Source of the DNA: Candidatus Thorarchaeota archaeon
GTDB lineage: Archaea > Asgardarchaeota > Thorarchaeia > Thorarchaeales > Thorarchaeaceae
DNA: 64,000 bases
Reading direction: 5' to 3'
Assembly (NCBI GenBank): GCA_046482545.1
Contig: JAWOEX010000021.1
Location: forward strand, 192,001-256,000
This document shows, piece by piece, positions 12,347-21,028 of the stretch. Numbering within the stretch: the stretch's first letter is position 1; every line of letters begins with the position of its first letter. Position numbers and translations under genes: made by a program. The notes beneath the pieces are model-generated. The model ran no database searches. It had not been told where the DNA came from and saw only the letters and a list, made by a program, of their open reading frames with translations.

Positions 12347-14290
12347 TCAGCTCCTTTTGTGCCTTAGATGCACTGCTAGCCCATTCTCGAACTCACACAT
12401 CTCGCGCCCAGACATCTCACTTTTCCCAACAGCAATGACACATTCATCGCGGTCCAGTACGATAACCTCATCACCTGGCCTAATTACGTCATCAGCATCC
12501 TCAATACCGACAGCAAAAAGTGAACTTCCTCTTAGTTTTGAGCCGTCAAAACCAATTCTAACCGAGTATCGGCCCATCTTCGAAAGCTTCCTTCCGCCAG
12601 CATTGGTTAGAGAGAGAGAACCGTTGTCTCCTACGAAAGTGCAGACTTGCTCTCCGTCAACTTCACAAACCACAGTTCGGTATAATCGGCCCCGAAAATC
12701 AGCATCATCTGGAATGAGTAATTCCCCAGCACCTGCTCCAAACTGGTAATCTGCAGTAGCCCTGAGCGTGTCTTTGAATTCGGTTGGATTGTGATATTCG
12801 ATGTTCAAAACCTTTTTCATGTCGTAAAGTGTTTCACGAAGTGCAGCCAGAGAATTCCGTGCTGTAGCATGTCCATCGGCAATAGAGTAGATTATGCTTT
12901 GCGAAATCTCAGACTCTGCAACCTTTACTGCATCAGTATACCCTCCAGATACATGTGCTACAACAACAATTGATTCGTCGTACTTCTGAAGAATGGTAGC
13001 AAGAGCATCTGCAGCAATCTTGAGCTCCTCTTCATCCCACTCCCCTGTTACAGGAATGTCATATTGGGCAACTGGATATACCCGTTCTAGCTCACGAGGA
13101 ATAACGCCCAAAGGAGATGTTAGAATGACTTCCGAAAGCGCGGATTTTTCTCTTCCCAATCCTGCCTGTATTGCTCGTTCAAATTTCCTGTGCGATCTAG
13201 ATTCTGAATACGGCTTCTTGGCAGAACATGGAAGTAATAGTACCAGTCGCTTGTTAGTTGGTGGTGAATAACGTGATGCAACAAAGTCCCTGAAACGACG
13301 GACTGCAGGAGCGTGATATGATTCAGGGCCAATCAGGTTTAACGACCTATCACCTGTTGTTGGAGTGAACTCCTCTAGGTAGTTGTACAGTTTTCTGTCA
13401 ATCCGTCGGAGAGCAGCTGCAGAAGCAGGGCTTGAGTGTGTGAAAGCCTCAACTAGCCATCTGAGTTTCCCTCTACGTAGTGCATCAACACCCTTTGACT
13501 TGACTTGCCGGTACATATTGAGATTATGTTCAAAGAGTCTCTCTTCAAACTCAGAGCTGGATATATCTTTCACATTCGTGATTTTGGCGCAAGCATCACA
13601 AGGACAGAAACGGAGAGGAACATGATCCTCAATTCTTTCAGCATCCAGTTCCCACAATCGTTTCTTGTGGAGAGCGGCTAGATGAGCATAGCCAACATCG
13701 AAAACGTCAACACCCAGATAGTATAGTAGGGGAACCAGCCACGGTTGAATTTTGCCAAGACCGATTGTAAGCCAGTTGGAAGGTAATTCAGCCCTGAAAC
13801 GGATTCCATTGAAATCTCTTGGACCAAGATTTCCGTTGAAAGAAAATGCTGCAGCCCTTACCCCCAATCCATGAAGATCTTCAACTACGTCGAGCATGCC
13901 ATTCTTCTTCGCACCTGCAGGTACCCGCAAGATGAGACGAGCAGGGTCAATCTGTCTACTCCATTGCCGGGCCAAGTCCACTTGCCGCTCTAGCAGGTAC
14001 TGAGCCATATAAGAGATAGAATCTGATGAGTATGCCACAGATGGAAGGAGAATCATATGCTCGTGATCTTCAAGAGGGGCTACATTGGTTTCCTTGTGAA
14101 ACACAGTTGAAAGGATGCCCATATCTGGAATTTTCACATCGTTTCCTGAGTAACCAATGTGCTGAAACCCTTCTACCCCCCTATATCCTAGAGCAAGAAG
14201 AGCTGGAAGATTCACGCGGTGCTTCTCAGTCTTGTATTCACCAATTCTAGCGGGGCCATCGTGACCTTCACCAATAAGAAATTCGTTCAA
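12347..14290 (-). CDS. arcS: Archaeosine synthase subunit alpha ArcS (TGT-like + DUF5591 + PUA)
   Basis: DGPARIG N-terminus, CPCDAC...HN Zn site, LLLPCSAKKPYSESRSH, TSPLG..PRELE, YDIPVTG.W, ADYQFG, C-terminal PUA (IRPGDEV). Confidence 0.9.
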   Translation of the reverse strand: MNEFLIGEGHDGPARIGEYKTEKHRVNLPALLALGYRGVEGFQHIGYSGNDVKIPDMGILSTVFHKETNVAPLEDHEHMILLPSVAYSSDSISYMAQYLLERQVDLARQWSRQIDPARLILRVPAGAKKNGMLDVVEDLHGLGVRAAAFSFNGNLGPRDFNGIRFRAELPSNWLTIGLGKIQPWLVPLLYYLGVDVFDVGYAHLAALHKKRLWELDAERIEDHVPLRFCPCDACAKITNVKDISSSEFEERLFEHNLNMYRQVKSKGVDALRRGKLRWLVEAFTHSSPASAAALRRIDRKLYNYLEEFTPTTGDRSLNLIGPESYHAPAVRRFRDFVASRYSPPTNKRLVLLLPCSAKKPYSESRSHRKFERAIQAGLGREKSALSEVILTSPLGVIPRELERVYPVAQYDIPVTGEWDEEELKIAADALATILQKYDESIVVVAHVSGGYTDAVKVAESEISQSIIYSIADGHATARNSLAALRETLYDMKKVLNIEYHNPTEFKDTLRATADYQFGAGAGELLIPDDADFRGRLYRTVVCEVDGEQVCTFVGDNGSLSLTNAGGRKLSKMGRYSVRIGFDGSKLRGSSLFAVGIEDADDVIRPGDEVIVLDRDECVIAVGKSEMSGREMCEFENGLAVHLRHKRS

Positions 14291-18685: not shown

Positions 18686-19804
18686 TTATAGCGTCTCACG
18701 TGTCATACTTGTCAAACGCGAACAACCATCCGCGGTGATAAGGAGCATATCCGCAATCTTAGCAGTCCCTGCCGGTTCACTATAAAACGTGGGATGAGCT
18801 GAAAAAATCATGCCCTCTCGTAACGAGTATGTACTACTGGGCGCTATCTGAGGGGGTTCTCGCAAATCCAAACCAATCGATGAACCAAGAACCCGCCCCT
18901 CTTTTTCTGTATTGAAGATTCCCTCGATGCATCTGGTTGCAAGCTTGGAAATCCGTACATGAGGTGCCATTAGCTCTTCAAGATTTAATGATACATCTAG
19001 CACACTGTTGAATAATGCCTTTTCATCTGGGTCTGGGGTTCCTGTATGTAGTGTTCTAGATATCTCAGCAAAATAACCAGAGTGGCTTACAGTTATGTCG
19101 ATTAAAACAAGGTCGTCATCACCAATGCGCTCTGCACTGGGTCGTACAAAAGGAAATCTTCCATGTCTTCCGGATAGTACTGCCGCCCTGATACCTTTGA
19201 GCTGTCCACCAGATCCTCGCATTGCTGCCTCGATTTCAACCGAAGCATCCTCCTCTGTCTTTCCCGGTACCACAATTTCTAATGCTGTCCTCAACCCAAT
19301 TTCAGCTATTCTTGTTGCCGCTTTGATTGTCTCGATTTCAGAAGGATCCTTTATCTGACGCAATCGCCACAGGTTCTTAGAAAAATCACAGAAACCAGCT
19401 TCTGGGAGGGTCTTCTTTAGAAGATTAAATTCCATCACTGAGACCCAATCCTGCTGGAAGCCAATCATGCCATCTTCTACTCCCATGTCACAAATTTCTT
19501 TGATAGCCATTTTCCACATCTGAGGACTATGGGCCAAAAACCATTCTGGCGAACCACCATCAGGGAATGTAACTACTTTTGTCATCACCAAATCGAGAGA
19601 TGAAGCTTTCCTCTGTGTTTCGGAGACAATCAAATGGGGTTGGTGACCATCAACGACAACGCACGCAACAGGAAGATTGTGCTGTGGAGGTTGGTAACCA
19701 GTAAGGTACTGGATATCCGGCTTCCGGGTCACAATAATAGCATCGATTTCTTCCACCCTCATTGAACGATGAACTTTCTCTAGTCGTTGGGGAGTAAATT
19801 CCAT
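18686..19804 (-). CDS. M24/aminopeptidase-P fold protein, predicted catalytically inactive (ORF open to 19840)
   Basis: Creatinase-N-like YLTGY region, LRQIKDPSEI, DIT...GY.AEISRT, IGL..REPP, L.EGM.F, LLIT.DG; most metal ligands substituted. Confidence 0.8.
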   Translation of the reverse strand: MEFTPQRLEKVHRSMRVEEIDAIIVTRKPDIQYLTGYQPPQHNLPVACVVVDGHQPHLIVSETQRKASSLDLVMTKVVTFPDGGSPEWFLAHSPQMWKMAIKEICDMGVEDGMIGFQQDWVSVMEFNLLKKTLPEAGFCDFSKNLWRLRQIKDPSEIETIKAATRIAEIGLRTALEIVVPGKTEEDASVEIEAAMRGSGGQLKGIRAAVLSGRHGRFPFVRPSAERIGDDDLVLIDITVSHSGYFAEISRTLHTGTPDPDEKALFNSVLDVSLNLEELMAPHVRISKLATRCIEGIFNTEKEGRVLGSSIGLDLREPPQIAPSSTYSLREGMIFSAHPTFYSEPAGTAKIADMLLITADGCSRLTSMTRETL

Positions 19805-20418
19805 GATTGAAACCTCTGAAAACTGTATGTATGATTCCAAAAGCGGTCTTCGCGTTGACTCTAGTGTTTCCCTTTCTAAGGGGATTTAAGCCTATAGATA
19901 ATACCTTCTGGACTCTTTGTTGCAAGCTTGTAGACTCGTAGGTGGGAAGCCTTCAAATCTCCAATATCTTGCAGTTTGACCCAAGAACCATTGACTTCAA
20001 AGAAGGTACCAACGGTATACGCTCCTGAAATCAGTTATTCTTCCATGCTAAAAATCCTCAGAGGTCTTAGTCGTTTTGAATGAGCAACATTTTCAAACAT
20101 TGTTCAAGAAGAAGAGATTAACAAGAAAAATCTCAGGATATCTATTCATATGTGAATCGCTTCGATTTGTAAGAAAGGATGACTTAGGTACATTCAGCCT
20201 AACGCGATGAGTGGGAAATGGCTGATCCGGCCATACCTCGAAAACGCAAATCCTCAATCCTCCGGAATGCTCTTTTGGCGAGTCCGTGTAAACCGGTCAT
20301 CAGCAAGCTTTCTGAATTTGAGAATGCTTTTGATACAAAACAAGCTGGAAGTATTCTAGAGTATTGGCTCAAAAGGAAATGGTCAGAATCAACTCGACAA
20401 GAAAATTGAATAGTAGTA

Positions 20419-20528
20419 TGGCGGGACCGCCCGGATTCGAACCGGGGATTACCAACTCCGCAGGCTGGTGCCTTATTCTCCTCTTTCAGAAGATAATCCT
20501 CTGAAAGTCCAGGCTAGACTACGGCCCC
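20419..20528 (-). tRNA. tRNA-Arg(GCG) with 32-nt D-loop intron; CCA encoded
   Basis: After intron removal the reverse complement folds to a 78-nt cloverleaf: GGGGCCG/CGGTCCC acceptor, GTCT/AGGC D stem, CCAGC-CTGCGGA-GTTGG anticodon arm, CCCGG-TTCGAAT-CCGGG T arm, G73, CCA. Confidence 0.95.
20477..20508 (-). other. Non-canonical tRNA intron (position 19/20) with bulge-helix-bulge
   Basis: Intron ACTTTCAGAGGATTATCTTCTGAAAGAGGAGA: CTTTCAGA/TCTGAAAG helix, bulges GG^A and GA^A around (G)CCT/AGG(A). Confidence 0.85.
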
Positions 20529-20550
20529 TAGGTAAATCCATTGAGAGTTT

Positions 20551-20556
20551 CTTATA
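20551..20556 (-). promoter_or_regulatory. Putative TATA box of tRNA-Arg(GCG)
   Basis: TATAAG 23-28 nt upstream of the tRNA 5' end, preceded by a purine-rich BRE-like stretch. Confidence 0.5.
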
Positions 20557-20612
20557 GACCCTTCGCTGGGGAGCTAGATGAAACTCCTGCTAAATAAGAA
20601 GAATTCAGGGAA

Positions 20613-20810
20613 TCAGGCAACGGGTGTTTCAACCGGATCGACAACGGCCTTTCCATTGCACTTAGTAACACGGAGCAGATACTCTGGGGTCTGGAGCAGA
20701 AAGCTTTCACCCTCCTCCAAGTACTGAAGAACCGAGTCGCCATCAGGATTGTTGAGCTGTTTGTCGTATTTTGATACGATTCTTTCTAATTGTGAACTCA
20801 TTAAGGTCAA
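20613..20810 (-). CDS. Small hypothetical protein between the two tRNA-Arg genes
   Basis: 65-aa ORF with globular composition; GGGTGG just upstream and TTTATA about 40 nt upstream; alternative ATG at 20801. Confidence 0.5.
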   Translation of the reverse strand: MTLMSSQLERIVSKYDKQLNNPDGDSVLQYLEEGESFLLQTPEYLLRVTKCNGKAVVDPVETPVA

Positions 20811-20891
20811 CCACCCATATTGTGTGTTAGTATATTTCTCAGAGATATAAAGCCCGCTCGAATGCCATGAAAAGGAGATAAGTTAGAGTGA

Positions 20892-21001
20892 TGGCGGGAC
20901 CGCCCGGATTCGAACCGGGGATTACCAACTCCGGAGGCTGGTGCCTTATTCTCCTCTTTCAGAAGATAATCCTCTGAAAGTCCAGGCTAGACTACGGCCC
21001 C
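20892..21001 (-). tRNA. tRNA-Arg(CCG) with 32-nt D-loop intron; CCA encoded
   Basis: Identical to 20419-20528 except at 20934 (wobble base), giving anticodon loop CTCCGGA. Confidence 0.95.
20950..20981 (-). other. Non-canonical tRNA intron (position 19/20), identical to 20477-20508
   Basis: Same 32-nt sequence and BHB geometry. Confidence 0.85.
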
Positions 21002-21022: not shown

Positions 21023-21028
21023 CTTAAA
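21023..21028 (-). promoter_or_regulatory. Putative TATA box of tRNA-Arg(CCG)
   Basis: TTTAAG 22-27 nt upstream of the tRNA 5' end, almost the same offset as for the other copy. Confidence 0.5.

What the first reader, a model, noticed from the sequence alone, without database searches (positions are those of the whole stretch)
20419..21001. Twin tRNA-Arg genes identical over 110 nt, intron included, except for the wobble base
Seen: two genes 473 nt apart differ at one position (20461 vs 20934), giving anticodons GCG and CCG. Identity stops essentially at the gene ends, and each copy has its own distinct TATA-like box. Known: tRNA introns normally diverge fast. Inference: recent anticodon-shift duplication, ongoing gene conversion, or copying of the intron-containing gene at the RNA level (intron transposition). 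The precise boundaries favour conversion or RNA-mediated copying over segmental duplication.
Basis: partly seen in the sequence, partly recalled or inferred. Interest (0 to 1): 0.7.

Follow-up and report, generated by a model that had tools for sequence, protein, structure and literature searches.

The report
tRNA intron copied between arginine genes
In this Asgard archaeon, one arginine tRNA gene appears to have been overwritten by its old neighbour, gaining the neighbour's intron but keeping its own anticodon; this is a directional example of a known kind of process (gene conversion between tRNA genes) spreading an archaeal tRNA intron.

Summary
Observation confirmed. tRNA-Arg(GCG) 20419-20528(-) and tRNA-Arg(CCG) 20892-21001(-) match at 109/110 nt, including a 32-nt D-loop (19/20) BHB-type intron. 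Contigs of two public runs reproduce the repeat topology, so mis-assembly is unlikely. The genome is Thorarchaeia (Asgard). This is not a recent duplication: the CCG-spacer-GCG layout is seen in 58 family genomes, with gene-specific promoters and a conserved 62-aa gene between. In both congeners only GCG carries this intron (25/32 identical to ours); their CCG is intronless and differs at exon positions 16 and 57. Here CCG has the intron and both GCG-type bases. Best reading: gene conversion from GCG into CCG, with the wobble base spared. A strain variant suggests at least two rounds. Five further family cases share introns between Arg isoacceptors. Exon identity alone is ordinary (9 of 62 genomes). 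No reverse transcriptase was found; an RNA-templated route is not excluded. Known in kind (yeast intergenic tRNA conversion, Thermoproteales intron transposition). A 2026 preprint leaves the arrival route of Asgard tRNA introns open and tested only cross-isotype copying. This explains intron spread, not origin. The scan reported a similar Arg pair in another archaeon.

The parts
20419..20528 (-). tRNA-Arg(GCG) gene with encoded CCA; inferred donor
   Evidence: orthologues with the homologous intron in both congeners
20477..20508 (-). 32-nt D-loop intron (19/20, boundary ambiguous by 1 nt) of the GCG gene: 11-bp inner hairpin, central helix 3 of 4 pairs (relaxed BHB)
20892..21001 (-). tRNA-Arg(CCG) gene with encoded CCA; inferred recipient
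   Evidence: intronless in both congeners and in 60 of 66 parsed family CCG genes
20950..20981 (-). Identical 32-nt intron in the CCG gene; inferred gain by conversion
20461..20461 (-). Wobble base G34 of the GCG gene
20934..20934 (-). Wobble base C34 of the CCG gene, the only difference between the copies
20986..20986 (-). C16 of the CCG gene: GCG-type state (T in congeners' CCG); pairs with the intron in the BHB central helix, so it could also be selected
20911..20911 (-). G57 (T-loop) of the CCG gene: GCG-type state (A in congeners' CCG), on the far side of the anticodon
20551..20556 (-). TATA-like box of the GCG gene, conserved in congeners
   Evidence: function inferred from archaeal promoter geometry
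21023..21028 (-). TATA-like box of the CCG gene, conserved in congeners, unlike the GCG box
   Evidence: function inferred
20613..20801 (-). Conserved 62-aa Thorarchaeota-specific hypothetical gene between the two tRNA genes; a crossover between the repeats would delete it
   Evidence: tblastn hits at 33-64% identity in the family loci; Atlas cluster of 73 archaeal members

Best explanation
Two old, separately promoted tRNA-Arg isoacceptor genes lie 473 nt apart as direct repeats. In the lineage leading to this genome, non-crossover homologous recombination (gene conversion) used the intron-bearing GCG gene as template and rewrote the intronless CCG gene. That brought in the 32-nt intron and the GCG-type bases at 16 and 57. 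C34 survived, either because tracts stopped either side of it or because products that changed the anticodon were removed by selection. Crossovers would delete one tRNA and the 62-aa spacer gene, so they are inferred not to persist. Homogenisation has probably recurred. The intron is tolerated because it folds with the D-loop into a relaxed bulge-helix-bulge that the two-subunit EndA should cut. SHOWN: sequence identity, age of the tandem, states in congeners, repeat topology in independent contigs, recurrence in the family, covariation of the BHB helix. INFERRED: direction, DNA-level mechanism, selection on C34, actual splicing.
For: Tandem CCG-to-GCG layout at 58 family loci, 413-3995 nt start to start, mostly 410-500. 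Congeners G001 and G002: CCG intronless with T16/A57, GCG with the homologous intron and C16/G57. G002's CCG equals this genome's intronless TCG gene bar the wobble base. 60 of 66 parsed CCG genes have no D-loop intron, so a gain here is one step. Paralogue 32/32 versus orthologues 25/32. Strain data: at gene position 43, mat-strain contigs show G in the CCG copy (X3) and in the GCG copy (X5), as in the congeners, while this genome has A in both copies; an RNA-run contig confirms A in the GCG copy. Recurrence: 7 of 19 within-genome Arg intron pairs exceed the maximum of 646 between-genus pairs (0.69; mean 0.44): G000 32/32, G015 30/31, G004 28/30, G001 27/32, G003 25/32, G067 25/34, G018 23/32. 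G067's pair also shares a near-identical T-loop insert. Exon distance between paralogues is below shuffled pairings within genera (3.24 versus 3.65, P=0.0006; kin are not independent). BHB central helix pairs 3.52 of 4 versus 2.93 shuffled over 42 introns. Two EndA paralogues present.
Against: This genome is basal to the two congeners on a single-gene quick tree, so gain here versus loss there rests on parsimony. Positions 16 and 57 flip often in the family and C16 may be selected for splicing, so co-conversion rests on two weak sites. A at position 43 in the CCG copy is seen only in this assembly, and the X3/X5 comparison joins two related strains. DNA-templated and cDNA-templated conversion leave similar footprints. 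No spliced product was seen. Twelve of 19 within-genome intron pairs are no more alike than background.
Confidence: 0.65

Rival explanations
1. Same mechanism, other history: the genus ancestor already had the intron in both genes, the two congeners lost it from CCG by conversion from the intronless TCG gene, and the copies here have been kept alike by ongoing conversion.
For: This genome is sister to (G001,G002). Their CCG matches the TCG type at 16 and 57. Intron and exon exchange with TCG also occurs in this genus (G001 TCG has the intron).
Against: Needs a gain on the genus stem plus a loss, against one gain. TCG in all three genomes has the CCG/GCG-type acceptor stem and a CCG-like leader end, and is intronless in two, which points to an intronless CCG donor on the genus stem (inference).
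Confidence: 0.15
2. RNA-mediated copying: the unspliced GCG precursor, or a cDNA of it, or the excised intron by reverse splicing, served as template for the CCG locus.
For: Identity is confined to the transcribed gene body. G001's TCG gene has the intron but keeps TCG-type exon bases on a different contig, as an intron-only transfer would give. The mechanism of Thermoproteales intron transposition is unknown (PMC4090602).
Against: No RVT_1 match in this genome (a MAG, so not proof of absence). The intron is in no other isotype here. G015 shares the D-loop intron but not the 37/38 intron, which a whole-precursor copy would not give. A short DNA tract explains the G001 case equally well.
Confidence: 0.12
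3. Recent tandem duplication of the GCG gene followed by a point change of the anticodon.
For: One-base difference and close spacing.
Against: Both loci, both promoters and the spacer gene are orthologous in the congeners and across the family. No flanking sequence was duplicated.
Confidence: 0.02
4. Assembly artefact: the CCG copy was collapsed onto the GCG copy.
For: The genome is a 45-contig assembly. One short metagenome contig at this locus (L059) looks chimeric.
Against: k-mer-level contigs of two studies show the CCG upstream flank entering the intron, and X3 links intron and CCG anticodon in one piece. An intronless CCG would share only about 15 nt 5' of the intron, too short to cause a chimera.
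Confidence: 0.03
5. Old shared intron held identical by purifying selection on splicing structure, without exchange.
For: Some introns are invariant across the genus, e.g. Leu(TAA). The BHB helix is constrained.
Against: This intron varies at 5-7 of 32 sites among orthologues, including loop and bulge bases, and is absent from the congeners' CCG.
Confidence: 0.03

Closest known systems
Intergenic conversion among tRNA genes in fungi (Amstutz 1985 and Heyer 1986, as cited in PMC4090602)
   Same: Dispersed tRNA genes are equalised including their introns, within a genome rather than across species.
   Different: The review describes genes of one isodecoder in eukaryotes with canonical introns. 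Here the genes are single-copy archaeal isoacceptors with different anticodons, the intron is non-canonical, and one copy appears to have gained it. That the S. pombe serine genes include different anticodons is my recollection and was not checked.
tRNA intron transposition in Thermoproteales (Fujishima 2010, as summarised in PMC4090602 and PMC4033280)
   Same: Near-identical non-canonical BHB introns in different tRNA genes of one genome; late gain; BHB needed at the target; proposed to act at DNA level.
   Different: That work stresses introns shared by evolutionarily distinct tRNA bodies. Here sharing is within the Arg family at one homologous position, with flanking exon bases apparently carried along. 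The primary paper was not available.
Asgard tRNA intron census (bioRxiv 10.64898/2026.10.13.758758)
   Same: D-arm introns missed by standard annotation, BHB boundaries, many recent terminal gains.
   Different: Its focal classes are Jordiarchaeia and Atabeyarchaeia. Its copying test counted only families spanning two or more isotypes, so within-isotype transfer was not scored. The words Thor, isoacceptor, gene conversion and concerted do not occur in the main text; supplements were not read.
Intron gain at tRNA-Thr(GGU) of Caldiarchaeum subterraneum (PMC3293823)
   Same: Intron gained by recombination between similar intron-bearing and intronless tRNA sequences over a short time.
   Different: The donor there is an integrating mobile element with a tRNA fragment and recombinase. 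None was recognised beside this pair; the donor is a resident neighbour gene.
Gene conversion in polyploid Haloferax volcanii (PMC8223754)
   Same: Shows that archaea convert efficiently without selection.
   Different: Allelic conversion between chromosome copies with tracts of hundreds to thousands of bases. Here ectopic conversion within 110 nt or less; ploidy of Thorarchaeia was not tested.

Membership tests
Archaeal non-canonical BHB tRNA intron | Removal of the insert restores a standard tRNA equal to intronless orthologues | tested here: met
   78-nt products called by ARAGORN; same exon sequence is the commonest intronless GCG form in the family (17 of 62)
Archaeal non-canonical BHB tRNA intron | Strict 4-bp central helix between two 3-nt bulges | tested here: inconclusive
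   3 of 4 pairs here with a terminal G.A mismatch; 4 of 4 in both congeners; helix covaries over 42 family introns. Fits a relaxed motif.
Archaeal non-canonical BHB tRNA intron | Host encodes an EndA type able to cut non-canonical introns | tested here: met
   Two PF01974 paralogues; one shows the Tyr/His/Lys pattern, the other lacks the His (read by eye), as for an alpha-beta enzyme; PMC5829648 abstract says this type cuts non-canonical introns. Activity not tested.
Archaeal non-canonical BHB tRNA intron | Spliced in vivo | not testable with these tools
   Only contigs of RNA runs were available; one unspliced piece, no spliced joint
Concerted evolution by intergenic gene conversion | Paralogues within a genome more alike than orthologues between species | tested here: met
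   32/32 versus 25/32; exon permutation
Concerted evolution by intergenic gene conversion | Loci older than the similarity, with flanks retained | tested here: met
   Synteny, promoters and spacer gene
Concerted evolution by intergenic gene conversion | Non-reciprocal, DNA-templated, recombination-dependent transfer | not testable with these tools
   Donor unchanged relative to congeners' GCG exons fits non-reciprocity; nature of the template cannot be read from sequence
Thermoproteales-type intron transposition | Near-identical intron shared by tRNAs of different amino acids or at different positions | tested here: not met
   No other copy in this genome; introns of other isotypes in the three genus genomes looked unrelated (incomplete tRNA set)
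Anticodon-shift duplication (tRNA remolding) | New locus absent from relatives, derived from the donor with its flanks | tested here: not met
   CCG locus is orthologous across the family
Retro-copy of a tRNA precursor | Reverse transcriptase available; new insertion site or newly encoded CCA | tested here: not met
   No RVT_1 match; no new site; CCA is already encoded in intronless orthologues

The most novel reading that the evidence does not exclude
Short-tract conversion between synonymous tRNA genes is a main route by which Asgard, and perhaps all archaeal, tRNA genes acquire introns secondarily. Many apparent independent gains would then be within-isotype copies that cross-isotype tests overlook, and the anticodon would act as a selected barrier that splits each gene into separately homogenised halves.
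Probability: 0.3. Interest if true: 0.6.

Novelty: new member of a known kind. Interest (0 to 1): 0.38.

Why it matters
How introns enter archaeal tRNA genes is called the central open problem in a 2026 census of Asgard tRNAs, which found no general route but scored only copying between different amino-acid types. This locus gives a polarised case with a named donor, intronless sister states, strain-level variants and about five further cases in the same family. It yields a cheap test: re-score published gains for a same-isotype donor. It also warns that counts of independent gains can be inflated and that tRNA gene trees within an isotype do not track loci. It explains spread only, not where new intron sequence comes from, and the process itself is known from yeast and suspected in Thermoproteales.

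Tried and rejected
Contig depths were inconsistent (single-copy pieces from 11 to 27 in X3) and were not used as copy number. The 32-nt skip in run X3 is not a spliced product: its flank matches the intronless TCG locus. The RNA run X6 gave one unspliced piece and cannot show expression or splicing. The sigma-70 scan does not apply to archaeal promoters. Rfam gave only a weak tRNA hit and a sub-threshold snoR60 hit; no guide RNA was found in the intron. ARAGORN misses the D-loop intron and truncates both genes. The careful tree did not finish; the quick tree of one helicase gene was used. Marck and Grosjean 2003 and Fujishima 2010 could not be fetched. A first regular-expression parse failed and was redone; G067 and G008 did not parse and were read by hand. 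I considered reading G067's D-loop introns as a breakpoint inside the intron and rejected it: they are full-length homologues with scattered changes. Exon identity as evidence in itself was rejected as too common. Searches failed on coordinates; 39 was redone, 66 was not.

Full report
OBSERVATION. The window lies on contig C26 of a 3.05-Mb, 45-contig assembly, 98.9% complete. Family members found with the same pattern are titled Candidatus Thorarchaeota (for example G015 and G067 match those records by position), so the organism is an Asgard archaeon of Thorarchaeia. The two genes, 20419-20528(-) and 20892-21001(-), differ at one base, the wobble position. The repeat is 111 nt and 473 nt apart. 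Excising gene positions 21-52 yields standard 78-nt tRNA-Arg(GCG) and tRNA-Arg(CCG). The insert forms an 11-bp hairpin and a relaxed bulge-helix-bulge with D-loop bases 15-17a, three of four pairs here and four of four in the congeners. Across 42 distinct family introns at this position the helix pairs 3.52 of 4 against 2.93 when partners are shuffled (relatives are not independent). The genome has two EndA paralogues, one with and one without the catalytic histidine by eye. Splicing itself was not shown.

IS IT REAL? Logan contigs of run X1 (possibly the source) and run X3 (another study, about 2.6% diverged in the spacer) break 30 nt inside the repeat at all four junctions. Both upstream flanks therefore lead into the first 10 nt of the intron, and X3 has one 111-nt piece with intron and CCG anticodon. 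Depths were erratic and were ignored. Mis-assembly is unlikely but spanning reads were not available.

AGE OF THE LOCI. The CCG-then-GCG layout was seen at 58 family loci. Each gene has its own conserved TATA-like box, and a 62-aa gene between them is conserved across the family. No flanking DNA is duplicated. A recent duplication with anticodon shift is therefore rejected.

WHAT CHANGED HERE. In the two congeners only the GCG gene has the intron, 25/32 identical to ours; their CCG genes are intronless and have T16 and A57, whereas GCG has C16 and G57. This genome's unlinked TCG gene (C28:124727-124804) is intronless and equals G002's CCG gene bar the wobble base. Our CCG gene has the intron, C16 and G57. 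Sixty of 66 parsed CCG genes in the family lack a D-loop intron. On a quick one-gene tree this genome is sister to the two congeners, so one gain here is simpler than a gain on the stem and a loss in the congeners, but direction is inferred. Either way recent homogenisation is required: at the orthologue divergence of 7/32, identical paralogues have probability about 4e-4. Fourfold sites of the neighbouring helicase differ at 60% between this genome and the congeners. At gene position 43 the mat strains have the congeners' G, in the CCG copy (X3) and the GCG copy (X5), while this genome has A in both. That suggests a second round after the strains split. It joins two related strains, and parallel mutation of a G.U to an A-U pair is possible.

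RECURRENCE. Among Arg genes with an intron at this position, 7 of 19 within-genome pairs are more alike than any of 646 between-genus pairs (maximum 0.69): this genome 32/32, G015 CCG/GCG 30/31, G004 CCT/TCG 28/30, G001 GCG/TCG 27/32, G003 and G018 GCG/TCG 25/32 and 23/32 (probably one event), G067 CCG/GCG 25/34. That is about six events with unrelated intron sequences. In G015 the exons and D-loop intron are homogenised but the 37/38 introns next to the anticodon are unrelated, which fits short tracts that avoid the anticodon. G067's pair also shares a near-identical T-loop insert. No tandem with two equal anticodons was seen. Exon distance between paralogues is lower than in shuffled pairings within genera (3.24 versus 3.65, P=0.0006), with the caveat of kinship. 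Exon identity bar the wobble base occurs in 9 of 62 genomes, and this genome's unlinked Ala(TGC) and Ala(CGC) genes show it too, so that part is ordinary.

MECHANISM. The best-supported reading is non-crossover recombination between two 78-110-nt homologues, GCG as template. Selection is inferred to keep C34 and to remove crossovers, which would delete a tRNA and the spacer gene. C16 pairs with the intron, so it may have been selected as well as carried along; G57 is not explained by splicing but flips often in the family. An RNA or cDNA template is not excluded. Against it are the lack of an RVT_1 match, the lack of the intron in other isotypes and the G015 pattern. The sharp ends of identity are uninformative, since homology itself ends there.

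COMPARISON WITH THE KNOWN. Equalisation of tRNA genes with their introns by intergenic conversion is described for fungi, and shared introns among Thermoproteales tRNAs are ascribed to transposition of unknown mechanism (PMC4090602; PMC4033280). Recombinational intron gain from a mobile element is described in Caldiarchaeum (PMC3293823). Efficient allelic conversion is shown in Haloferax (PMC8223754). The 2026 Asgard census (10.64898/2026.10.13.758758) reports many recent gains, finds almost no copying between tRNA types and calls the arrival route open, but its test counted only families spanning two isotypes and focused on other classes. It works like fungal intergenic tRNA conversion. It fails the cross-isotype feature of Thermoproteales-type transposition and is not filed there. 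An earlier report of this scan reached a similar reading for a twin Arg pair in another archaeon (e1-2640195); I had recorded my reading before seeing it and did not test that case.

VERDICT. Real, and best explained as intron spread by gene conversion between arginine isoacceptor genes. New member of a known kind. Interest 0.38: unsurprising in mechanism to a tRNA specialist, but a clean polarised case that points to an untested route in a stated open question. It explains spread of an intron, not its origin.

Noticed in passing
window 20613-20801 (-): Conserved 62-aa hypothetical gene with its own TATA-like box between the two Arg genes; Thorarchaeota-only Atlas cluster; two or three paralogous hits at some family loci (L051, L098, L112, L116, L119, L120).
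   Followed up: partly
window 18686-19840 (-): M24 peptidase-fold protein (PF00557, PF01321) whose metal-ligand motifs look altered in the translation; other first readers flagged the same in related genomes as a possibly inactive Spt16-N-like fold.
   Followed up: no
window 12347-14290 (-): Protein with DUF5591, TGT_C2 and PUA domains, archaeosine-synthase-like by my reading. Archaeosine is made at G15, a base that lies in this intron's central helix.
   Followed up: no
G000:C28:122373-122630 (L232): The putative structural EndA subunit gene lies between the tRNA-Arg(CCT) and tRNA-Arg(TCG) genes.
   Followed up: partly
G000:C28:111997-112116: Leu tRNA that ARAGORN calls AAG reads as Leu(TAA) with an intron that is identical in all three genomes of the genus, unlike other introns.
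   Followed up: partly
L162 (G001:C47:2167-2322): An intronless tRNA-Phe of a different sequence type is directly followed by a damaged copy whose 3' end matches this genome's tRNA-Phe; possibly a replacement by an integrated element.
   Followed up: no
L059:gene at about 190-300: Contig joins a CCG-type upstream flank, an intron-bearing CCG gene and a GCG-type downstream flank; either an assembly chimera or a deletion between the repeats.
   Followed up: partly
L073 and L085 (G008:C10:2378 and 8108): Two intron-bearing Arg(GCG) 5' parts 5.7 kb apart, the first lacking a T-arm; looks like an attachment-site duplication with diverged introns.
   Followed up: no
L087, L088 (G018, G003): In genus g2 the GCG gene has a TCG-type acceptor stem and D-loop together with an intron related to that of TCG, suggesting long-range conversion between unlinked genes.
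   Followed up: partly
G000:C6:81529-81604 and C33:27991-28066: Unlinked Ala(TGC) and Ala(CGC) genes are also identical except for the wobble base.
   Followed up: partly
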